From a virus: 64,000 nucleotides of DNA. Below the pieces are notes generated by a model. It ran no database searches, was not told the DNA's origin, and saw nothing but the letters and a program-made list of their open reading frames with translations. This document shows, in pieces, positions 45,953 through 53,118 of this stretch (the first letter of the stretch is position 1; each line of letters starts with the position of its first letter). The position numbers and the translations under genes were made by a program. The stretch spans positions 100,429 to 164,428 of the IMG/VR virus record IMGVR_UViG_3300032236_000718; one strand, 5' to 3'.

Positions 45953-46351
45953 ATGTCTAAAGATTGGGTTGCAGATATATTTCGAATGCATAAGCACTAT
46001 GGTGTGCACAAAGTAGTTGACGCTCTGGATAATGAAATGCTTCATAAGTTTCTAGAGTTCCGCTATAGCTTCCTCGATGAGGAGATGAAGGAACTTCGCT
46101 CAGCAGAGAATGCTGATGATGCAGTTGATGCCTTGATCGATCTCTGTGTTGTTGCTATTGGGACACTAGATGCTATGAATGTGGATGCTCACGCAGCATG
46201 GGATGCAGTTCACCAGGCAAACATGAATAAAAAAGTCGGCATCAAGGAGTCGCGTCCTAATCCATTAGGTCTGCCGGATCTTATTAAGCCTGAGGGTTGG
46301 GTTGCACCTTCGCATGAGAACAATCTAGGGTACTTTAAAAAGGTCTACTAA
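45953..46351 (+). CDS. MazG-like/all-alpha NTP pyrophosphohydrolase
   Basis: EEMKEL...DALIDLCVVAIG...VHQANMNK...KPEGW. Confidence 0.8.
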   Translation: MSKDWVADIFRMHKHYGVHKVVDALDNEMLHKFLEFRYSFLDEEMKELRSAENADDAVDALIDLCVVAIGTLDAMNVDAHAAWDAVHQANMNKKVGIKESRPNPLGLPDLIKPEGWVAPSHENNLGYFKKVY

Positions 46352-46352
46352 G

Positions 46353-46925
46353 ATGACTATTAATGACTTTGCTAAAGAGATTCCATTGGGTAAATGGATC
46401 TATCTAGAAAAGACTGAAGAAACTGAGAACTTTATTAAAAAGAAAACTGATGATATTTTTAATAATCCAGTAACACGTCATGGAAGAGAATACGAAGAAG
46501 TCTATAATTCTACTAAAAAAATGCTGATTGAGTATGCTTTAGCAAAGTATGATGCAAACTTTATCTTAAACACTAAAGAGCATAATAAGTTTGATCCAGA
46601 CACGTATGCATATGATCTTACTCATGCTCCTAGCGGAATAACTATTGAGATAAAAAGATTTGGAGAGTCTGATAATTTTAAATGGTTTTCTTATCCTAAG
46701 AAAGCTTTAAATACTTTCTTAAAAAATCTTGATATAATAGATGTCCTTATTTGTGGAAAACTTAAGGAAAATAAAGCTAACAACAGCTATGAAGTAAAGT
46801 TTATGTTGGTAGCAGATGCTAAGTCTTTTAAAAAATATATGAAAACATCTGTGTACAAAAGTGAAGATATAATTTATAGTCACTATAACGCCGCCAAAAA
46901 TGGCGACTGTGTATTCAACATCTAG
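46353..46925 (+). CDS. hypothetical protein, possible PD-(D/E)XK nuclease
   Basis: AT/Lys-rich; E...YDL...IEIKR pattern. Confidence 0.45.
   Translation: MTINDFAKEIPLGKWIYLEKTEETENFIKKKTDDIFNNPVTRHGREYEEVYNSTKKMLIEYALAKYDANFILNTKEHNKFDPDTYAYDLTHAPSGITIEIKRFGESDNFKWFSYPKKALNTFLKNLDIIDVLICGKLKENKANNSYEVKFMLVADAKSFKKYMKTSVYKSEDIIYSHYNAAKNGDCVFNI
46852..46880 (+). promoter_or_regulatory. pre-replicative promoter TGTACA-N17-TATAGT
   Basis: Motif family member upstream of ORF 46934. Confidence 0.65.
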
Positions 46926-46933
46926 GAGTCAAC

Positions 46934-47278
46934 ATGTCAGACAATGAATCAGTTATTATCCTTCAAGAATGTATCGCTCTTCAACAAGCCAAGTCACAAG
47001 ACTATCAAAACCCTAACTCTAATGTGGTTCAGGCCATGCACTATCGTCGTGGTGTAGACTCTATCCATGACATCATGCAAGGCAAGCTCTACCGTGCACA
47101 GTCTCTTCTCGAGTCTGGTCGTGCAGACTCTGCTAACTTTGAGTCTCTTGAGGATACCTATAAAGACCTCATCAACTATGCATCGTTTGCAGTAGCTTGG
47201 CTTCGTGGTGGTATTCCTGGCCAAGATCTTAATCGTGACATGTTCAATAACAAGGTAGTCACTGATGCACACTCGTAA
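46934..47278 (+). CDS. nucleotide-modification-associated domain protein (Nmad1/DUF1599-like)
   Basis: AKSQDY...K..R...ESLEDTYKDLINYA. Confidence 0.65.
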   Translation: MSDNESVIILQECIALQQAKSQDYQNPNSNVVQAMHYRRGVDSIHDIMQGKLYRAQSLLESGRADSANFESLEDTYKDLINYASFAVAWLRGGIPGQDLNRDMFNNKVVTDAHS

Positions 47279-47921
47279 CTATGTAGGTGATATACGCAGG
47301 TCTTTTTGGTCATTAAAAAAACACGAGATGTTTGTAACAGATAAGACTGGCGTCAAGATGCTTGAGATCGTCAATGCGTCATTCATTGCTGACGAGCCCA
47401 GTATATTTGGCAAAGTCAACTATGATTATGTGATGCGTGAGTTGCAATGGTACGAGTCGCAGTCGTTGAATGTCAATGATATTCCTGGTGGTACTCCTGC
47501 TATCTGGCAACAAGTATCTGATCCAGATGGTTGGATTAACTCTAACTATGGTTGGTGTATCTTTTCACCAGATAATGGTGAGCAGTATCACAATGTCCTT
47601 GACGAGCTTAAGCGTAACCCTGACTCTCGTCGCGCTACAATGATCTATACAAGACCAAGCATGTGGTCTGACTATAACAAGAATGGCATGTCTGACTTTA
47701 TGTGTACTAACACAGTGCAGTATCTTATACGTAACGACAAGCTACATAGTGTTGTACAAATGCGTTCAAATGATGTAGTATATGGATACAAGAATGATTA
47801 TGCTTGGCAGCAGACCGTACTAGGAAAGCTGTCTACTGACTTAGGTATTGAGATCGGTGACATTCACTGGAATGTAGGGTCTCTTCACGTATATGAGCGA
47901 CACTTTGACCTCGTTCTCTGA
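47265..47921 (+). CDS. gp42: dCMP hydroxymethylase (T4 gp42-like thymidylate synthase homologue)
   Basis: DKTGVK; INSNYGW; DSRRATMIYTRPSM; MSDFMCTNTVQYLIR; MRSNDVVYGYKNDYAWQ with the Asp specificity residue; WNVGSLHVY. Confidence 0.88.
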   Translation: MHTRNYVGDIRRSFWSLKKHEMFVTDKTGVKMLEIVNASFIADEPSIFGKVNYDYVMRELQWYESQSLNVNDIPGGTPAIWQQVSDPDGWINSNYGWCIFSPDNGEQYHNVLDELKRNPDSRRATMIYTRPSMWSDYNKNGMSDFMCTNTVQYLIRNDKLHSVVQMRSNDVVYGYKNDYAWQQTVLGKLSTDLGIEIGDIHWNVGSLHVYERHFDLVL

Positions 47922-48378
47922 GAGTTGGATGAAGAAGTACTTGGACCTAGCCGGTCATATTGCCGGCTGGTCTAAGGATCCGAGCACTAAAGTTGGTGCT
48001 GTGGCTGTCGGCCGTGACGGTCAGATCCTGTCACAGGGTTACAATGGTTTCCCGCGTGGTATCAAGGACTCATATGAACGCCTTATTAATCGTGAGGAAA
48101 AGTATAAGTTTGTTGTTCATGCTGAGATGAACTGCATCTACAATGCAACACTAAATGGTATAAGTCTTCGTGATGCAGACCTATATGTGTATGGTCTACC
48201 GGTCTGTTCTGAGTGTGCTAAGGGAGTTGTGCAAGTTGGAATTAAACGTGTCTTCATGTGTTACCCGGCAGAGATTGGAGAGAAGTGGAATGATTCGTTC
48301 AAAGTCACATCAGCCATCTTCCAAGAAGCTGGAGTGTCCGCGCGTGCTGATAGTGGGGATAAATCCCTCTTCGTCTAA
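47893..48378 (+). CDS. cd: dCMP deaminase
   Basis: SKDPSTKVGA; GYNGFPRG; HAEMN; PVCSECAK. Confidence 0.92.
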   Translation: MSDTLTSFSESWMKKYLDLAGHIAGWSKDPSTKVGAVAVGRDGQILSQGYNGFPRGIKDSYERLINREEKYKFVVHAEMNCIYNATLNGISLRDADLYVYGLPVCSECAKGVVQVGIKRVFMCYPAEIGEKWNDSFKVTSAIFQEAGVSARADSGDKSLFV

Positions 48379-48700
48379 GAAAGCAGATCCTACAATAACA
48401 TTAAAGAGACTATATCAATGGACTGACAGCCTCGGGCTGCAGTTCTTTTCTTTTGTGAACTGCATTAATAAGCCAGGCGCGTACTCATTCAAAGATGTTG
48501 ACTTTGACTTCCTGTCGACGTGTGCTCAAGGATATGACAAGGTAATATCTCTTGGTAACTTTCCTTCTCGCGCACTAAATAAGCTCGGTATAGAACACTT
48601 TGTCATGCCTCATCCATCAGGACTAAATAGAAAGCTTAATGACAAACACTATGAGCTCTCTATGTTAGAGCATTTGAAGGAATACCTTAATGAGCATTGA
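48344..48700 (+). CDS. minimal uracil-DNA-glycosylase-superfamily protein
   Basis: LIVGINPS and MPHPSGLN motifs; GTG 48344 with GGAG SD preferred to 48170. Confidence 0.6.
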   Translation: MLIVGINPSSSKKADPTITLKRLYQWTDSLGLQFFSFVNCINKPGAYSFKDVDFDFLSTCAQGYDKVISLGNFPSRALNKLGIEHFVMPHPSGLNRKLNDKHYELSMLEHLKEYLNEH

Positions 48701-49874
48701 GACGACTCAATACTATGACGAGTTCATCCGCTACTTCCACTTAGCAGCTGAGCAGCAAGAGAAGTGCAACACATCAACTAAACCACCATACGGTATGATA
48801 GATCATGCAGTCTCTGATATGGGTGACGACTTACTACACTATGTGACACTATATGACGTCGTTGAGCGTAAGTTAGCCGGCTTCTCACAGATAATGAATG
48901 ACTGCTTCTATGGATGGACTGAAGAGCACCCATACTGGAAGAAGATGGAAGCCGGCATGGTAACCGCACAGCGTGATGCTGTGGCGAAGGCGTGGACAGG
49001 CAAGCACTCTGACTTCTCTCTGCCTGAATGGCTTTATATCTTTATCTTACACCGTGTTACTGGTTCTGCTATTAACTACGCTACTCAGCCATCTGGCTAT
49101 CACAATACGATTCTTCCTGTGTTATGTAATGCCAAGAGCATCGAGGACATGGTAAAGATGCTAAACAACTATGACCGCTCTTTCTATACATCAGTAGGTT
49201 ATCAGTTTCCTGCATTCCCTAAGCCGCCTGCTGGCTCCAAGTACAAGCGTGGCGGCGACTACTTCTTGTCTGAGTACGCACCGCGACTCGCTCGTGAGTT
49301 AGCTGAGTGGCTACAGCGATCAAATGCTAAGAAAGATCTTCGCGAGATTGGCGAGTTTATGTTTGATTGGAATCGTCGCAATGGTTTACGTGTCTATCAG
49401 TTCCAATATGCTGCAGTTCTTGCTGACATTGCTGATTGGTACCCGCAATACGTTAATCTAGACTCGATGTTTTATTATGGCACAAATGCTGTAGAGTGCA
49501 TAAACTATCTAGCTGTTCCAACTAAGAAGATGAACCAGATGGAATTCCTAGATAAGGTAATGGAGAAGATATATGAAGACACCAATTCCGTTCCGTATAA
49601 CGCGGAAGACGTCTGCTGCGACTTCATCAGATGGGTCGAAAACTACGTCCGCCCCGGCGCGCACTACGACCATCTGGACTTCGACGGAGTCTGGTCATCG
49701 TGTAGGATTAAGGATCACCCGTACGGAAGACAAAAGGCTATGCTCGACCTTAATCTCGTCAGCACCTTTAACGGAATGACTGCACACCCATCTGATGACT
49801 ATATAATCAAGAAAGCAGGTCTATCTGTTGAGCAGTATAAAGAGATGGTGAAGGGATTAAACTATGTCTCATGA
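48690..49874 (+). CDS. putative amino acid:DNA transferase (aGPT-Pplase-like helical glycosylase fold)
   Basis: FQY..V.ADI...YGTNA..C...NAEDVCCDFIRW resembles the GPGA/E..LCE motifs of this family; neighbourhood. Confidence 0.6.
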   Translation: MSIETTQYYDEFIRYFHLAAEQQEKCNTSTKPPYGMIDHAVSDMGDDLLHYVTLYDVVERKLAGFSQIMNDCFYGWTEEHPYWKKMEAGMVTAQRDAVAKAWTGKHSDFSLPEWLYIFILHRVTGSAINYATQPSGYHNTILPVLCNAKSIEDMVKMLNNYDRSFYTSVGYQFPAFPKPPAGSKYKRGGDYFLSEYAPRLARELAEWLQRSNAKKDLREIGEFMFDWNRRNGLRVYQFQYAAVLADIADWYPQYVNLDSMFYYGTNAVECINYLAVPTKKMNQMEFLDKVMEKIYEDTNSVPYNAEDVCCDFIRWVENYVRPGAHYDHLDFDGVWSSCRIKDHPYGRQKAMLDLNLVSTFNGMTAHPSDDYIIKKAGLSVEQYKEMVKGLNYVS

Positions 49875-50751
49875 TACACACGTCATCGATGGTATTAATA
49901 AAGATGCTAGACTCTATCCTGGTTGCACTATTGAGGAAGCTAGAGACTATTACCTATCTCTAGCAGAGGGATGGACACCTTACAATCCTGATCCTGTAGT
50001 CGTCGTTCATGATGGTGTTCGTGTAGTGCGTGATGACATGATCGTAGGCACTAAGACACGTGCTGGAGATCTTCTTATGTCAAAGACAAACTATGACACA
50101 ATAGTATACTCACAACCACGTACAGGTCTTGCTGGAGTTTCTATCTTAGATGCTGCTCGTCGTCATAGCAAGAAGGTTGTCTTGTTTATGCCAGCAGCCA
50201 AGCAAATATCTCTTCATCAAGCATGCTGCATCGAGCAGGGTGCTATACCTATATTTAAGCGTATCGCTGCTATGCCTAATCTAAATAAGTATGCAAAAGA
50301 ATGGGCTGATGAAAATAATGCTTTCTTTGTTCCACTAGGTCTTAGACACGAGTTGGCTACAGCTGGTATTGTTCACGCTGCTTCTACTATTGAGCCACCT
50401 GATCGCGTGTATGTTGCAACATCAACCGGGGTACTATCGCGAGCACTTCAGATTGCATGGCCAAAAGCCAAGTTTACTTCTATCGCTGTCGCCCGCAATC
50501 TCAAAGAAGGTGAGCTAGGAAGAGCACAGGTGATATCTGAGCCATTAGACTTTAATGCTCCAGAGAAGCCAGAGAATATGCCACCATTTCCTGCTATCTC
50601 TACGTATGATGCAAAAGTCTGGAAGTATATTCCTAAGAATACGGGTGAGAATATTTTAATGTGGAATGTTGGACCAGATCCTGTTTTACAAAATCCGTGT
50701 ATATATAATACAGTTGACTCATATCGTGATTGGGATAAAAATATACAATGA
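49864..50751 (+). CDS. PLP-dependent enzyme, fold type II
   Basis: VRDDMIVGTKTR (PLP lysine); FVPLG; VATSTGVL; YDAKVW; MWNVG. Confidence 0.78.
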   Translation: MSHDTHVIDGINKDARLYPGCTIEEARDYYLSLAEGWTPYNPDPVVVVHDGVRVVRDDMIVGTKTRAGDLLMSKTNYDTIVYSQPRTGLAGVSILDAARRHSKKVVLFMPAAKQISLHQACCIEQGAIPIFKRIAAMPNLNKYAKEWADENNAFFVPLGLRHELATAGIVHAASTIEPPDRVYVATSTGVLSRALQIAWPKAKFTSIAVARNLKEGELGRAQVISEPLDFNAPEKPENMPPFPAISTYDAKVWKYIPKNTGENILMWNVGPDPVLQNPCIYNTVDSYRDWDKNIQ

Positions 50752-51788
50752 GAGCTCTTCTAGCTTCGCCTTTTGCGACTATATCAAATAATCCAGCATC
50801 ACACCGTGCTGCTCAAGCTGTGATCTATGCAGACCAGATTAAACAGTCTGGTGTCGATATCACAGTTAATATGGCAGGAGACAATTATTATGAAGACTTT
50901 AATAAGTTTGACGTCCTCTACGTTTATCATGGCAATGATTGGGGTGGCACTCTTAACCTTTTCGGGGGGCTCTCTGATACTCCTGTTGTCGATAATCTTA
51001 TTAATCTCTCAAAGTTCAAAGGTACAGTCTTCTCGCTAGTCATTCCATTCCCTGACTACTATCAAATGGTAGCAAAGCGCATGGAGGGAAACGGTAATAT
51101 TGATCCCAAGTGGAATCAAGTCAATTGGGATAATATCAAGCGCATGGTCAATGCACCAGTGATTGATCCTAATAAGCTATCAATCTATCGTAAAGCTGCT
51201 ATCGGTGATAGTCATGCAATCTGCATGTATCGTCCAGGATGGATGATAAACTCAGTTCCATTCAAGACACTACATGGAGCACTAAAGCAGGGACTTAAGT
51301 CATTCTTACCAATACCAAATGTTGAGTATGATGAGTTGGAATTCTATTTCGGAAACATCGATATTCGCCACCATCTCATGAGACAGACAGACCCTGATCC
51401 TGCTACTGCGACTATAAATCTGGTTCGTAGATATTTTGATCAGGCAAAAGAATTTAACACTAATGTAAAGATCTACGAGCCTCTTCCTATTGAGGATGTA
51501 TCTCGTAAGCTTCCAAAGACTGGATACTATAAGGGAACTCCTTACTATGGCACGTGGGAAGAAAGGACTGCTATACGTAAGATCTTTATAACAGAGTGTG
51601 AGAAACAAGAGACAGATAAAGTAAAACTATATAGATGGAATCGCCATATGATTAACAGTAAGGGAGAACTAGACTTTAAGTTTATGGAGAAGCCTAAGTC
51701 TGTTCACTTGTCACGTGAACACTATCCACACTGGCAAGGCTTAGAGTATAACAATATAGTAGTGAATGGATTGAGTGAGTTTATATGA
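50748..51788 (+). CDS. SGNH/GDSL-like hydrolase or acyltransferase
   Basis: IGDSH (block I), FGNIDIR (block III), SVHL (block V). Confidence 0.6.
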   Translation: MRALLASPFATISNNPASHRAAQAVIYADQIKQSGVDITVNMAGDNYYEDFNKFDVLYVYHGNDWGGTLNLFGGLSDTPVVDNLINLSKFKGTVFSLVIPFPDYYQMVAKRMEGNGNIDPKWNQVNWDNIKRMVNAPVIDPNKLSIYRKAAIGDSHAICMYRPGWMINSVPFKTLHGALKQGLKSFLPIPNVEYDELEFYFGNIDIRHHLMRQTDPDPATATINLVRRYFDQAKEFNTNVKIYEPLPIEDVSRKLPKTGYYKGTPYYGTWEERTAIRKIFITECEKQETDKVKLYRWNRHMINSKGELDFKFMEKPKSVHLSREHYPHWQGLEYNNIVVNGLSEFI

Positions 51789-51799
51789 TGGAGAATAAT

Positions 51800-52267
51800 A
51801 TGGATTATTTTAATGATGCTGCTGTAGGTGCTATCGGTGCAGTAGGATCTAATAGTGTTAATGTACTAGGAACACCCGGATTTGGTCTTGGTGCAAATGG
51901 ACCAGCAATGTATTCTACTGGACCTAAAGAAGGATATGTTGAGACAGATATTGACATGACTTTTAATATAACAAAAGTAGAGGTATCTAAAACTATTGAG
52001 TATAAGTACAATGAAAGTGTGTACATAACTGAGATTTTAGAGTATATTAATAATACATATGGCGAGCATTACTCGCAGAACAAGTTTCAAGCCACAGAGT
52101 TTATTATTGACTCTGGCCATGGTACTGGCTTCTGTATGGGCAACGTCATGAAGTATGCCCAACGTTATGGCAAGAAGGGTTCTCCAGCCGACTGGAGAAA
52201 AGATCTAATGAAAGTGATTCACTATGCTATTATGCAATTGCATGTACATGACAAGGAGACTAAATAA
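51800..52267 (+). CDS. DUF3310-like protein
   Basis: TYGEHYS...GFCMGNVMKYAQRYGKKG...DLMKVIHYA. Confidence 0.75.
   Translation: MDYFNDAAVGAIGAVGSNSVNVLGTPGFGLGANGPAMYSTGPKEGYVETDIDMTFNITKVEVSKTIEYKYNESVYITEILEYINNTYGEHYSQNKFQATEFIIDSGHGTGFCMGNVMKYAQRYGKKGSPADWRKDLMKVIHYAIMQLHVHDKETK
52020..52048 (+). promoter_or_regulatory. pre-replicative promoter TGTACA-N17-TATATT
   Basis: Motif family member, intragenic, upstream of 52267 and gp45. Confidence 0.6.
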
Positions 52268-53118
52268 TGGAAATTAATATTCCGATCGAGGAACTTCGTA
52301 AGCGCAAGCTATTCCTCGCTACACCTATGTATGGTGGACAATGTGCTGGTATGTTTGCGAAGTCTATTGCCGACCTCTCTGCACTCTGCACCAACTATGG
52401 TATCCCGCTTCAACTCTATTTCCTATTCAATGAGTCGTTGATCACTCGCGCGCGTAACTATTGCGTAGACGAGTTCATGCGCTCTGAGGCAGAGCATCTT
52501 ATGTTCATCGACTCTGACATTGGGTTTAATCCACATGATGTTATCGCTCTCATGGCACTTCAAGCACAAGAGCCAGAGAAGTACAACATTATTGGTGGAC
52601 CATATCCTAAGAAGTGCATTAGCTGGGAGAAGATTAAGTTGGCAGTAGATAAGGGACTCGCTGATGAGGATCCAGGTCAACTCGATCGCTACGTAGGTGA
52701 CTATGTGTTCAACCCTAAGCAGAACACTGGATCGATTGCTATTGGTGAACCTTGTGAAGTTCTTGAGATCGGCACGGGCTTTATGATGATCACCAAGGAT
52801 GCTTGTAAGAAGTTTGTTGAGGCATATCCTCAGTATAGCTATCGTCCTGACCATGTTCGCACTGAGGCGTTTGACGGATCACGCGAGATCATGCAGTTCT
52901 TCCAAGCTGAGATCGATCCTAAGTCTAAGCGCTACCTCTCAGAAGATTACTGGTTCTGTCAGAAAGTCCAAGAGATTGGATTGTCTACATGGTTCTGCCC
53001 ATGGATGAAACTGCAACACGTTGGATCATATATCTTTGGTGGATCGCTCGCTGATCTTGCACAGATCGGTGCGTCCGCTACTGCTGACCCTGAAGCACTG
53101 AAAAAGAAAAAGAAGTAA
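52267..53118 (+). CDS. GT-A fold glycosyltransferase-like protein
   Basis: ATPMYGG; NESLITRARN; FIDSDI (DxD); GTGFMMI; YLSEDYWFC. Confidence 0.75.
   Translation: MEINIPIEELRKRKLFLATPMYGGQCAGMFAKSIADLSALCTNYGIPLQLYFLFNESLITRARNYCVDEFMRSEAEHLMFIDSDIGFNPHDVIALMALQAQEPEKYNIIGGPYPKKCISWEKIKLAVDKGLADEDPGQLDRYVGDYVFNPKQNTGSIAIGEPCEVLEIGTGFMMITKDACKKFVEAYPQYSYRPDHVRTEAFDGSREIMQFFQAEIDPKSKRYLSEDYWFCQKVQEIGLSTWFCPWMKLQHVGSYIFGGSLADLAQIGASATADPEALKKKKK

What the first reader, a model, noticed from the sequence alone, without database searches (positions are those of the whole stretch)
45953..53118. Possible new DNA hypermodification pathway: cytosine hydroxymethylase paired with thymidine-hypermodification-type enzymes
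Seen: contiguous, mostly overlapping genes for a MazG-like NTPase, Nmad1-like protein, thymidylate synthase homologue, dCMP deaminase, mini-UDG, aGPT-Pplase-like protein, fold-II PLP enzyme, SGNH protein, DUF3310 and a GT-A protein. The synthase closely follows T4 gp42 (MSDFMCTNTVQYLIR; RSNDVVxGxxNDYAWQ) and has Asp where dUMP-specific enzymes have Asn. Known: characterised amino acid:DNA transferase plus PLP-enzyme pathways (ViI, M6 types) act on 5hmdU, while T4 5hmC is glucosylated. Inference: either an amino-acid/amine adduct on 5hmC, or 5hmdCMP deaminated to 5hmdUMP by the adjacent deaminase. No P-loop 5hmU-DNA kinase is visible in this window, so activation chemistry may differ or be encoded elsewhere.
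Basis: partly seen in the sequence, partly recalled or inferred. Interest (0 to 1): 0.8.

Follow-up and report, generated by a model that had tools for sequence, protein, structure and literature searches.

The report
Kinase-less hydroxymethylcytosine DNA hypermodification cassette
An uncultured T4-like phage makes hydroxymethylcytosine as T4 does, but instead of T4's sugar-adding enzymes it carries three enzymes related to those that attach amino acids to thymine in other phages, with an esterase-type enzyme where the usual DNA kinase would be, so its DNA probably carries a cytosine modification nobody has described.

Summary
Eleven tightly packed + strand genes lie at 45953-53118 of a 164-kb, about 99% complete T4-like phage genome.

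- **Synthase:** 62% identical to T4 gp42 and 27% to the RB69 5-hydroxy-dCMP synthase. It keeps every residue that marks a dCMP hydroxymethylase.
- **394-aa gene:** a new clade of the aGPT-Pplase/AADT superfamily. Its best solved match is PaMx11 gp46 (Z 10.1), and it keeps the essential Glu-x3-Cys pair.
- **295-aa gene:** a homologue of the M6 gp52 PLP decarboxylase; Lys64 aligns with gp52 Lys36.
- **346-aa gene:** a T4-BGT-like N-terminal half joined to an intact SGNH esterase/acyltransferase domain. In other phages it is fused to the 394-aa protein, just as P-loop 5-hmU DNA kinases are fused to their helical domain.
- **Kinase:** the genome has no P-loop DNA kinase.

The trio travels with Asp-type synthases in hundreds of metagenomic loci and in an unrelated PolA-type phage. 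The likely product is an amine-bearing, amino-acid-derived adduct on 5hmC; the chemistry is inferred, not shown. The deamination-to-5hmU alternative is disfavoured, because the genome has ThyX and many relatives lack the deaminase. This scan reached the same reading of this cassette on at least eight other genomes. I found no published description.

The parts
45953..46351 (+). MazG-like NTP pyrophosphatase; candidate dCTPase (the role of T4 gp56)
   Evidence: PF01503 at 5e-8 and phrog_671 at 2e-20. Found upstream of the synthase in 48 of 80 related loci, and beside the module in the unrelated phage L098. The substrate is inferred.
46353..46925 (+). 190-aa protein; weakly resembles DenB, the T4 endonuclease IV that cuts cytosine-containing DNA
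   Evidence: phrog_1360 at 1e-5 only, and no Pfam hit. Found in only 8 of 80 related loci. Low confidence.
46934..47278 (+). Nmad1 / DUF1599 (nucleotide modification associated domain 1)
   Evidence: PF07659 at 5e-6 and phrog_1485 at 1e-12. Found in 56 of 80 related loci.
47265..47921 (+). dCMP hydroxymethylase of the T4 gp42 type (5hmdCMP synthase)
   Evidence: 62% identical to T4 gp42 and 27% to RB69 gp48. It has Cys147, Asp144 (E. coli L143 position), Asp170 in MRSND (E. coli D169 kept) and Asp178 (E. coli N177 position). All 61 clade homologues share these residues. The residue rule comes from PMC13326640.
47893..48378 (+). dCMP deaminase; probably supplies dUMP to the phage's ThyX
   Evidence: PF00383 at 1e-17 and phrog_174 at 1e-39. 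ThyX lies at G000:C1:27611-28186. The deaminase sits between synthase and C in 37 of 63 loci.
48290..48700 (+). Small UDG-superfamily protein with MUG/TDG-like motifs (VGINPS, MPHPSG); start codon uncertain (the ORF opens at 48170)
   Evidence: PF03167 at 2e-4, below the cut-off. Motifs read. Found in 20 of 63 loci. The role is inferred: keeping U or 5hmU out of the DNA.
48690..49874 (+). C: glycosylase-fold, Glu/Cys enzyme of the aGPT-Pplase (AADT / HMUDK_hel) superfamily; a new clade
   Evidence: AF2 model pLDDT 95. VIA Z 10.1 to PaMx11 gp46/PUGT 8z2n (211 residues, rmsd 3.9), followed by HhH glycosylases. Atlas TM 0.72 to an HMUDK_hel-bearing cluster and 0.61-0.65 to a cluster named as an AADT. 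E306 and C310 are at least 90% conserved. No Pfam hit.
49864..50751 (+). D: fold-type II PLP enzyme, homologue of the DNA-bound amino-acid decarboxylase M6 gp52
   Evidence: phrog_7093 at 1.4e-32 over the full profile length. M6 gp52 is the core of that family at 2e-159. hhalign probability 94.5%, with K64 aligned to gp52 K36. K64 is invariant. A homologous domain in phage R6L passes PALP.
50748..51788 (+). E: two-domain enzyme with a T4-BGT-like N-terminal half plus a catalytically intact SGNH domain; stands where the DNA kinase would be
   Evidence: AF2 pLDDT 90. The SGNH fold scores Z 13.3 to 2hsj, and all top 50 matches are SGNH. G153-D-S155-H, G177, G202-N203-I-D and H320 are invariant. 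The N-terminal half against T4 BGT gives hhalign 62.6% at 7e-5. E is fused to C-like domains in P0157, P0158 and Aeromonas phage 31 ORF233c.
51785..52267 (+). F: DUF3310 protein; shares the domain of the P-loop-less T7 gp1.7 nucleotide kinase; candidate kinase
   Evidence: PF11753 at 3e-10, plus several 'nucleotide kinase' PHROGs. T7 gp1.7 carries DUF3310 at 5e-23, and BLASTP gives 48% over 33 aa. PMC10700055 links DUF3310 to the kinase. Found in 51 of 80 loci.
52267..53118 (+). G: GT-A-like putative glycosyltransferase (D82-S-D84); its membership of the module is doubtful
   Evidence: phrog_1574 at 1e-58. Weak Anp1 and GT21 Pfam hits at 0.01. An Atlas neighbour is named a nucleotide-diphospho-sugar transferase. 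Homologues occur in phages that lack the module.

Best explanation
The cluster combines a T4-style pre-replicative route to 5-hydroxymethylcytosine with a three-enzyme post-replicative module. That module most likely turns 5hmC in DNA into an amine-bearing, amino-acid-derived adduct.

**Supported by sequence and structure comparison**
- The synthase is a gp42-type dCMP hydroxymethylase.
- C has the fold and the Glu/Cys catalytic pair of the enzymes that displace a leaving group from the C5-methylene of 5-hmU in DNA.
- D is a homologue of the PLP decarboxylase that trims DNA-bound amino acids.
- E is an intact SGNH acyl-hydrolase/transferase joined to a T4-BGT-like half, and it is fused to C-type domains in other phages.

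**Inferred**
1. The MazG-like enzyme destroys dCTP, and the DUF3310 protein or a host kinase phosphorylates 5hmdCMP.
2. After replication, E works with C and activates the hydroxymethyl group, probably by O-acylation rather than phosphorylation.
3. Cys310 of C attacks C6 and the leaving group departs.
4. An amino-acid side-chain nucleophile adds to the exocyclic methylene.
5. D removes the carboxylate.

The product would be a cationic base such as an aminoalkoxy- or aminoalkylamino-methylcytosine that blocks nucleases.
For: **Synthase.** It is 62% identical to T4 gp42. It has Asp at the E. coli N177 and L143 positions, and it keeps D169. D169 distinguishes hydroxymethylases from the D169N 5-hydroxylases (rule from PMC13326640). 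All 61 clade homologues share these residues.

**C.** The best solved match is the amino acid:DNA transferase PUGT (Z 10.1). Atlas neighbours carry HMUDK_hel or ADDT. The conserved E306-x3-C310 matches the essential PUGT pair E243-x3-C247.

**D.** It matches phrog_7093, the M6 gp52 family, at 1e-32, and K64 aligns with K36.

**E.** The SGNH fold scores Z 13.3, with invariant Ser, Gly, Asn and His.

**Fusions.** E and C form one polypeptide in several 50%-identity cluster representatives, and an E-like domain is joined to an HMUDK_hel-like domain in Aeromonas phage 31.

**Linkage.**
- Of 53 loci with enough downstream DNA, 50 have D and 52 have E.
- Of 46 loci with enough upstream DNA, 45 have the synthase.
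- The same MazG, E, D and C set with an Asp-type synthase occurs in a PolA-type phage.

**Kinase.** The genome has no P-loop kinase apart from PhoH, no HMUDK_hel match and no T4 gp1 homologue.
Against: - No chemistry has been measured: the phage is uncultured and no reads could be examined.
- C matches neither Pfam ADDT nor HMUDK_hel. Profile comparisons with PaMx11 and M6 members are insignificant.
- For an all-helical protein, Z 10 is only moderately above the next group, the AGOG glycosylases at 8.7.
- SGNH enzymes are mostly hydrolases. No acyl donor is evident, and the block V Asp is missing.
- Many relatives carry a second paralogue, C', which also has Glu-x3-Cys. The window lacks it, so the division of labour between C and C' is unclear.
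- A PLP decarboxylase needs a free alpha-amine. This restricts which linkages are possible, and none has been tested.
Confidence: 0.6

Rival explanations
1. 5hmdCMP, or 5hmC in the nucleotide pool, is deaminated to 5hmdUMP by the adjacent deaminase. The module would then modify 5hmU, as in ViI or M6.
For: A dCMP deaminase overlaps the synthase gene. The closest characterised relatives of C and D act on 5hmU derivatives. A deaminase also sits near the module in two unrelated contigs.
Against: - The phage has ThyX, so the deaminase has the ordinary T4-like job of feeding dTMP synthesis.
- The deaminase is absent from between synthase and C in 26 of 63 related loci.
- No 5-hmU DNA kinase or HMUDK_hel match is present.
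- T4 itself pairs gp42 with such a deaminase (PMC2993671; my own knowledge of T4 cd).
Confidence: 0.07
2. The final modification is a sugar. E (BGT-like half) and/or G (GT-A-like) would glycosylate 5hmC, while C and D serve another purpose or add a second decoration.
For: - The E N-terminal half resembles the T4 BGT N-terminal domain: Pfam 0.057, Foldseek 1qkj at 2e-4, hhalign 62.6%.
- G has a DxD motif and GT-A leads.
- Every known 5hmC or 5hoC decoration is a glycoside (PMC13326640).
Against: - E lacks the nucleotide-sugar-binding half; an SGNH domain takes its place.
- G occurs in Sinorhizobium, Synechococcus and Pelagibacter phages that lack the module, and in only 54 of 80 loci.
- The genome has no T4 BGT homologue.
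- This reading does not explain the gp52-type PLP enzyme or the E-C fusions.
Confidence: 0.12
3. E together with C makes a terminal O-acyl (for example acetyl) or other ester on 5hmC. No amino acid is transferred, and D acts on a small-molecule donor rather than on DNA.
For: - The SGNH catalytic residues are intact.
- The window has only one glycosylase-fold gene, whereas 41 of 72 relatives have two.
- Aeromonas phages 31 and 44RR2.8t have the E-helical fusion but no D homologue.
Against: - D is nearly always linked to C and E, in 50 of 53 loci.
- D is homologous along its whole length to a decarboxylase that acts on DNA-bound amino acids.
- A D-like domain is fused to a DNA methylase-type protein in phage R6L.
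Confidence: 0.12
4. C is a DNA glycosylase used in repair, base excision or anti-defence, and E is an unrelated esterase. The neighbourhood would then reflect nucleotide-metabolism clustering only.
For: After PUGT, the next structural matches are 8-oxoguanine and 3-methyladenine glycosylases (Z 8.7 to 5). A UDG-like gene lies next door.
Against: - Conservation centres on the Glu-x3-Cys pair typical of the transferases.
- E and C are fused in several lineages.
- The trio moves together between unrelated phage types.
Confidence: 0.05

Closest known systems
Thymidine hypermodification pathways of phages M6, ViI, PaMx11, PhiW-14 and SP10: 5-hmU DNA kinase, amino acid:DNA transferase, then PLP decarboxylase or other tailoring enzymes (PMC8989533, PMC11472151)
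   Same: - A TS-family hydroxymethylase makes the precursor base.
- A glycosylase-fold enzyme carries an essential Glu/Cys pair.
- D is a gp52-type fold-II PLP enzyme (same PHROG family; Lys aligned).
- The activating enzyme is fused to a helical domain.
- MazG, Nmad1 and deaminase genes lie alongside.
   Different: - The base is cytosine: the synthase has Asp, not Asn, at the specificity position.
- There is no P-loop kinase. An SGNH/BGT-half protein occupies the kinase's place and its fusion position.
- C fails both the ADDT and HMUDK_hel Pfam models.
- There is no radical SAM or flavin partner.
T4 5hmC pathway (gp56, gp42, gp1, cd, alpha- and beta-glucosyltransferases)
   Same: - The hydroxymethylase is 62% identical to gp42.
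- A dCMP deaminase is present, with a MazG-type candidate dCTPase and a weak DenB-like gene.
- The genomic setting is the same, next to genes 45, 44, 62 and regA.
   Different: - No alpha- or beta-glucosyltransferase and no gp1 dNMP kinase were found.
- ThyX replaces td.
- Only the N-terminal half of E recalls BGT.
5-hydroxycytosine arabinosylation pathway of RB69 and DLP3 (PMC13326640)
   Same: Both are T4-like phages with a gp42 homologue and no glucosyltransferases, which decorate cytosine through another route.
   Different: - Those synthases carry D169N and use flavin to make 5-hydroxy-dCMP. The window enzyme keeps Asp and is only 27% identical to RB69 gp48.
- The window has no arabinose-nucleotide genes and no GT-B transferases.
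Aeromonas phages 31 and 44RR2.8t, ORF233c (795 aa, uncharacterised)
   Same: - Residues 1-330 are 32-33% identical to E.
- The C-terminal half is HMUDK_hel-like, with an E-x-x-C-C motif like that of C.
- These phages have gp42 (62% identical to the window's) and no glucosyltransferases (PMC2993671).
   Different: - E and the helical domain form one polypeptide.
- No D (PLP) homologue is present.
- The neighbouring gene encodes a Na+/solute symporter.
- The DNA chemistry of these phages is not reported in the papers I searched.

Membership tests
T4 gp42-type dCMP hydroxymethylase | Thymidylate-synthase fold with the catalytic Cys | tested here: met
   PF00303 at 2e-19. Cys147 is invariant in the alignment with T4 gp42.
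T4 gp42-type dCMP hydroxymethylase | Asp at the E. coli ThyA N177 position (dCMP rather than dUMP) and an acidic residue at the L143 position | tested here: met
   Asp178 (in NDYAWQ) and Asp144 (in SDFMC). All 61 clade homologues are the same. The rule is from PMC13326640.
T4 gp42-type dCMP hydroxymethylase | Asp kept at the E. coli D169 position (Asn marks 5-hydroxy-dCMP synthases) | tested here: met
   The window and T4 have MRSND, while RB69 gp48 has MRSQN.
T4 gp42-type dCMP hydroxymethylase | Produces 5hmdCMP from dCMP and methylene-tetrahydrofolate | not testable with these tools
   This needs an enzyme or in vivo assay.
Amino acid:DNA transferase (AADT; Pfam PF18724 ADDT; aGPT-Pplase clade 2) | Match to the family profile | tested here: not met
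   No Pfam hit even at E 10, and 0 of 50 family members hit ADDT. hhalign against PaMx11 gp46 and M6 gp51 gives about 1% probability. PaMx11 gp46 itself scores 1.6e-27.
Amino acid:DNA transferase (AADT; Pfam PF18724 ADDT; aGPT-Pplase clade 2) | Two-bundle, HhH-glycosylase-like all-helical fold | tested here: met
   VIA Z 10.1, rmsd 3.9 over 211 residues to 8z2n. The next 26 matches are all HhH glycosylases or QNG1. Atlas TM is 0.61-0.65 to a cluster named as an AADT.
Amino acid:DNA transferase (AADT; Pfam PF18724 ADDT; aGPT-Pplase clade 2) | Essential conserved Cys with a neighbouring Glu near the C-terminus | tested here: met
   E306 and C310 are at least 90% conserved across 50 sequences and have the same spacing as PUGT E243/C247. 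I could not obtain a residue-level structural superposition.
Amino acid:DNA transferase (AADT; Pfam PF18724 ADDT; aGPT-Pplase clade 2) | Works downstream of a P-loop 5-hmU DNA kinase | tested here: not met
   There is no HMUDK_hel match. The only spare Walker-A protein is PhoH. There is no homologue of PaMx11 gp49.
5-hmdU DNA kinase helical domain (Pfam PF18723 HMUDK_hel) | Match to the family profile | tested here: inconclusive
   The window protein gives no hit. One of 50 relatives hits at 0.01, and the Aeromonas fusion hits at 0.0036. The nearest Atlas clusters carry the family in 11-36% of members.
5-hmdU DNA kinase helical domain (Pfam PF18723 HMUDK_hel) | Follows, or is fused to the C-terminus of, the enzyme that activates the hydroxymethyl group | tested here: met
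   C-type domains follow E-type domains in one polypeptide in P0157, P0158 and others. The partner is an SGNH protein, not a kinase.
M6 gp52 / ViI gp226 PLP-dependent decarboxylases of DNA-bound amino acids (phrog_7093) | Full-length profile match | tested here: met
   phrog_7093 at 1.4e-32 over positions 8-279 of 279. M6 gp52 scores 2e-159 in the same family. hhalign probability is 94.5% over 215 columns.
M6 gp52 / ViI gp226 PLP-dependent decarboxylases of DNA-bound amino acids (phrog_7093) | Lysine for the internal aldimine (gp52 K36) | tested here: met
   K64 is invariant in GTKTR and aligns with gp52 K36. The K36 assignment is from PMC8989533.
M6 gp52 / ViI gp226 PLP-dependent decarboxylases of DNA-bound amino acids (phrog_7093) | Decarboxylates an amino acid attached to a DNA base | not testable with these tools
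   This needs a biochemical assay.
SGNH hydrolase / acyltransferase superfamily | SGNH fold | tested here: met
   Residues 140-330: Foldseek 7e-7 and VIA Z 13.3 (167 residues, rmsd 3.0) to 2hsj. All top 50 matches are SGNH proteins.
SGNH hydrolase / acyltransferase superfamily | Block I Ser, block II Gly, block III Asn and block V His | tested here: met
   G153-D-S155-H, G177, G202-N203-I-D and H320 are invariant in 30 sequences, including 7 fusion proteins.
SGNH hydrolase / acyltransferase superfamily | Block V Asp three residues before the His (DxxH) | tested here: not met
   That position is Lys317. The invariant Glu314 may substitute for it.
T4 beta-glucosyltransferase (GT-B) | N-terminal acceptor (DNA) domain | tested here: inconclusive
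   PF09198 at 0.057. hhalign gives 62.6% at 7e-5 over 65 columns, including NLFGG against NFFGG. Foldseek gives 1qkj at 2e-4 with TM 0.32.
T4 beta-glucosyltransferase (GT-B) | C-terminal UDP-glucose-binding Rossmann domain | tested here: not met
   The C-terminal half is an SGNH domain.
T7 gp1.7-type nucleotide kinase (DUF3310) | DUF3310 domain | tested here: met
   PF11753 at 2.6e-10. T7 gp1.7 scores 4.5e-23.
T7 gp1.7-type nucleotide kinase (DUF3310) | Similarity over the rest of gp1.7, and kinase activity | tested here: inconclusive
   Only 33 residues align by BLASTP (48% identity, 2e-7). Activity cannot be tested here.
GT-A glycosyltransferase (protein G) | Profile match and DxD motif | tested here: inconclusive
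   Anp1 at 0.01 and Glyco_transf_21 at 0.013, both below cut-off. D82-S-D84 is present. One Atlas neighbour is named a nucleotide-diphospho-sugar transferase.

The most novel reading that the evidence does not exclude
A widespread family of aquatic phages activates 5-hydroxymethylcytosine in DNA by O-acylation instead of phosphorylation. An SGNH enzyme would replace the DNA kinase. A new clade of glycosylase-fold Cys enzymes would then install an amino acid, which a gp52-type PLP enzyme decarboxylates. The result would be the first amino-acid-derived hypermodified cytosine and a new way of activating a DNA base for group transfer.
Probability: 0.3. Interest if true: 0.85.

Novelty: new variant of a known kind. 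Interest (0 to 1): 0.75.

Why it matters
In the papers I read, every decoration described on 5hmC or 5-hydroxycytosine is a sugar, and the amino-acid-derived hypermodifications are all on thymine.

This cassette would extend amino-acid chemistry to cytosine and would use a non-kinase activation step. It is abundant:
- 555 IMG/VR loci encode a relative of the 394-aa protein.
- More than 900 homologues of that protein and more than 1,400 of the SGNH protein turn up in the metagenomic protein search.

So a large share of aquatic T4-like phages may carry DNA that standard sequencing, restriction and CRISPR tools read or cut differently. The enzymes could become tools for selective labelling of 5hmC. 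The related fusion protein in the cultured Aeromonas phages 31 and 44RR2.8t, whose hmC decoration was noted as unknown in 2010 (PMC2993671), offers a tractable entry point.

Tried and rejected
- **Cultured relatives.** Megablast of the cluster and tblastn of the 394-aa protein against 50,697 phage records gave no match.
- **PDB by sequence.** phmmer of C, E and G, and an hmmsearch with the C profile, gave nothing. D gave only a chance-level hit, then cysteine synthases at E 0.1 with a profile.
- **Foldseek on C.** Alone it gave no match at E 0.001 or better; the aligner's second look was needed.
- **Profile comparisons.** C and C' against PaMx11/M6 ADDT and HMUDK_hel pairs were insignificant. 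A1 against the Aeromonas C-terminal half aligned only 22 columns.
- **Complex prediction of E with C.** It returned 'no answer' with score 0.00. This counts neither for nor against binding.
- **Promoter and terminator scan.** Counts were at chance level. T4-type middle and late promoters are not covered by that tool.
- **5-hydroxycytosine (RB69-type) chemistry.** I considered it and rejected it on the D169 rule.
- **ThyA-type second synthase.** None was found in the genome.
- **C' paralogue elsewhere in the genome.** None was found.

Full report
**Setting**

The window is the last 64 kb of a single 164,428-bp viral contig that CheckV rates about 99% complete. It is a T4-like phage.
- Upstream of the cluster lie a gp46-type SMC/Rad50 ATPase, a peptide deformylase and a DenV-like gene.
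- Downstream lie the sliding clamp gp45, the clamp loader gp44/gp62 and RegA.
- No cultured phage shares the DNA.

**Observation**

Eleven + strand ORFs fill 45953-53118. Their junctions overlap by 1 to 29 nt or lie at most 8 nt apart. The exception is the UDG-like ORF, whose start is uncertain.

| ORF | Assignment | Evidence |
|---|---|---|
| 45953-46351 | MazG-like | PF01503 |
| 46934-47278 | DUF1599/Nmad1 | PF07659 |
| 47265-47921 | TS homologue | PF00303 |
| 47893-48378 | dCMP deaminase | PF00383 |
| 48290-48700 | UDG superfamily | PF03167, sub-threshold |
| 51785-52267 | DUF3310 | PF11753 |

Three ORFs have no Pfam family: C (394 aa), D (295 aa) and E (346 aa). G (283 aa) gives only weak GT-A hits.

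**The synthase makes 5hmC, not 5-hydroxycytosine or 5hmU**

tblastn finds gp42 homologues of T4-like phages at 63-68% identity. A 2026 paper showed that the gp42 homologues of RB69, DLP3 and others are flavin-dependent 5-hydroxy-dCMP synthases. They are diagnosed by Asn in place of E. coli ThyA Asp169. Asp at the N177 position and an acidic residue at the L143 position are shared by both kinds (PMC13326640).

In my alignment the window enzyme is 62% identical to T4 gp42 and 27% to RB69 gp48. It reads MRSND like T4, where RB69 reads MRSQN. It has Asp178 and Asp144 at the other two positions. All 61 homologues in related loci show the same signature. The 28-residue C-terminal tail of T4 gp42 is absent, but it is also absent in nearly all clade members aligned, so the gene is not truncated.

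**C is a new clade of the aGPT-Pplase superfamily**

- **Abundance.** C has more than 900 metagenomic homologues and 142 cluster representatives at 50% identity. It has no Pfam or PDB sequence match.
- **Fold.** An alignment-based AlphaFold model is confident (pLDDT 95). The best solved match is the 5-phosphomethyl-dU glycinyltransferase PaMx11 gp46/PUGT (Z 10.1, 211 residues, rmsd 3.9). AGOG, Ogg, AlkA and MutY glycosylases and QNG1 follow.
- **Atlas neighbours.** Viral clusters carrying HMUDK_hel or named as amino acid:DNA transferase give TM 0.72 to 0.61. The language-model search gives the same neighbours.
- **Motif.** The family conserves E306 and C310 in at least 90% of members. The spacing and C-terminal location match PUGT E243/C247. 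That pair is the metal-binding Glu and the Cys that attacks C6, and mutagenesis showed both to be essential in M6 gp51 and ViI gp247.
- **Limit.** The kinase-associated helical protein PaMx11 gp50 also has the motif (EHTLCEF). I therefore cannot place C in one family rather than the other, and profile-profile tests against both fail.

**D is a gp52-type PLP enzyme**

- D matches phrog_7093 along its full length at 1.4e-32.
- M6 gp52 is the experimentally shown decarboxylase of DNA-bound C-alpha-glycinylthymine, and it is the core of that family at 2e-159.
- hhalign gives 94.5% probability over 215 columns. It aligns the invariant K64 with gp52 K36, the predicted aldimine lysine.
- A D-like domain in Erythrobacter phage R6L passes Pfam PALP and is part of a large DNA-methylase-annotated protein.

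**E stands where the kinase would be**

The model (pLDDT 90) has a C-terminal SGNH domain at residues 140-330. It scores Z 13.3 to 2hsj, and all top 50 matches are SGNH esterases, thioesterases or O-acetyltransferases. Ser155, Gly177, Asn203 and His320 are invariant. The N-terminal half resembles the acceptor half of T4 beta-glucosyltransferase only weakly.

Several 640 to 790-aa proteins join an E-type domain to a C-type domain:
- P0157 is 34% identical to E (E-value 2e-54).
- P0158 is 30% identical to E (E-value 1e-36).
- The 795-aa ORF233c of Aeromonas phages 31 and 44RR2.8t joins an E-like half to a half with a sub-threshold HMUDK_hel hit and an E-x-x-C-C motif.

This is the architecture of 5-hmU DNA kinases (P-loop domain plus HMUDK_hel), with the kinase swapped for an SGNH enzyme.

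**Linkage**

IMG/VR holds 555 loci encoding a relative of C. The 80 I fetched share this order:

gp46, deformylase, MazG, Nmad1, synthase, (deaminase), (UDG), C, (C'), D, E, DUF3310, G, gp45

| Loci considered | Result |
|---|---|
| 53 with at least 4.5 kb downstream of C | 50 have D, 52 have E |
| 46 with at least 3 kb upstream of C | 45 have the synthase |
| 63 with both synthase and C | 37 have the deaminase between them |
| 72 with both C and D | 41 carry C' between them |

C' is a 331-aa paralogue of C that keeps E-x3-C. The window's genome has none.

An unrelated PolA-type phage contig has MazG, E-like, D-like and C genes plus a synthase reading SCD...KNDY, so it too is cytosine-specific. 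Another contig has the E-C fusion beside a deaminase, a dUTPase_2 protein, a 293-aa gene and a TS homologue. A third has the fusion beside a D homologue.

**Kinases and the deaminase**

- The whole genome has no HMUDK_hel match.
- The only Walker-A proteins are the helicase, gp46, gp44 and PhoH.
- There is no homologue of T4 gp1, of the RB69 nucleotide kinase or of PaMx11 gp49.
- The DUF3310 protein shares its domain with the P-loop-less T7 gp1.7 nucleotide kinase (PMC10700055). It is a candidate 5hmdCMP kinase, but only 33 residues align.
- The genome encodes ThyX. The deaminase therefore most simply feeds dTMP synthesis, as cd does in T4.

**G**

G is GT-A-like, with a DSD motif, weak Pfam hits and an Atlas lead. 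Its homologues occur in Sinorhizobium, Synechococcus, Caulobacter and Pelagibacter phages that lack the module. I do not count it as a core part.

**Mechanism**

Fold, motif and homology are shown. The chemistry below is inferred.
1. 5hmC enters the DNA as in T4.
2. E, acting with C, activates the hydroxymethyl group. O-acylation is the simplest reading of an intact SGNH site.
3. Cys310 of C adds to C6, the leaving group departs, and a nucleophile from an amino acid adds to the exocyclic methylene.
4. D needs a free alpha-amine, so the amino acid should be attached through its side chain (serine as in ViI, or ornithine or lysine). Decarboxylation would then leave a primary amine.

**Rivals**

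The rivals are deamination to 5hmU, glycosylation, a terminal acyl ester, and a plain glycosylase. Each is weighed in its own section of this report.

**Novelty**

Full-text searches found no report of an SGNH enzyme, or of an AADT-type and PLP pathway, acting on 5hmC. This scan has reached the same reading on at least eight other genomes. I consulted those notes after forming mine, and they agree with it.

- the D169 test against the new 5-hydroxycytosine chemistry
- ThyX in the same genome
- the K64/K36 alignment with gp52
- the DUF3310 kinase lead
- the C' presence and absence counts
- the Aeromonas phage model system

Noticed in passing
L019:14129-15325 (also L049:6737-7933 and L081:14354-15562): Some relatives carry a 398-aa C5-cytosine DNA methyltransferase gene (PF00145, 5e-18) inside the cassette, between E and the DUF3310 gene. 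This is odd for phages expected to replace cytosine with 5hmC.
   Followed up: partly
L014:4165-5160 and 41 other related loci; absent from the window: A 331-aa paralogue of the 394-aa protein (C') sits between C and D. hhalign probability is 92%, and E287-x3-C291 is invariant. The window's genome has none. It may mark two chemical variants of the pathway.
   Followed up: partly
L001:5408-6931 (Aeromonas phage 31 ORF234c): A Na+/solute symporter gene (PF00474, 7e-53) lies directly upstream of the E-helical fusion gene ORF233c. It might import a substrate for the modification.
   Followed up: no
G000:C1:27611-28186 (outside the window): The phage encodes a flavin-dependent thymidylate synthase, ThyX (PF02511, 6e-43), rather than a T4 td-type enzyme.
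   Followed up: partly
window 48170-48700 versus 47893-48378: The UDG-like ORF overlaps the deaminase gene by 88 nt (start at 48290) or up to 209 nt (start at 48170). The true start is unresolved. The protein has MUG/TDG-like VGINPS and MPHPSG motifs.
   Followed up: no
L088 (Erythrobacter phage vB_EliS_R6L gp1, spanning the record origin): A PALP domain 30% identical to the window's PLP enzyme is part of a large protein annotated as a DNA modification methylase. This suggests other DNA-directed uses of the PLP family.
   Followed up: no
L024:13417-14499: A 360-aa gene with no Pfam family is inserted between D and E in one sub-lineage.
   Followed up: no
H54, Stenotrophomonas phage vB_SmaS-DLP_6, 29740-30594: A cultured T4-like phage has a 65%-identical homologue of the GT-A-like protein G but no homologue of C. 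It could be used to test what G does on its own.
   Followed up: no
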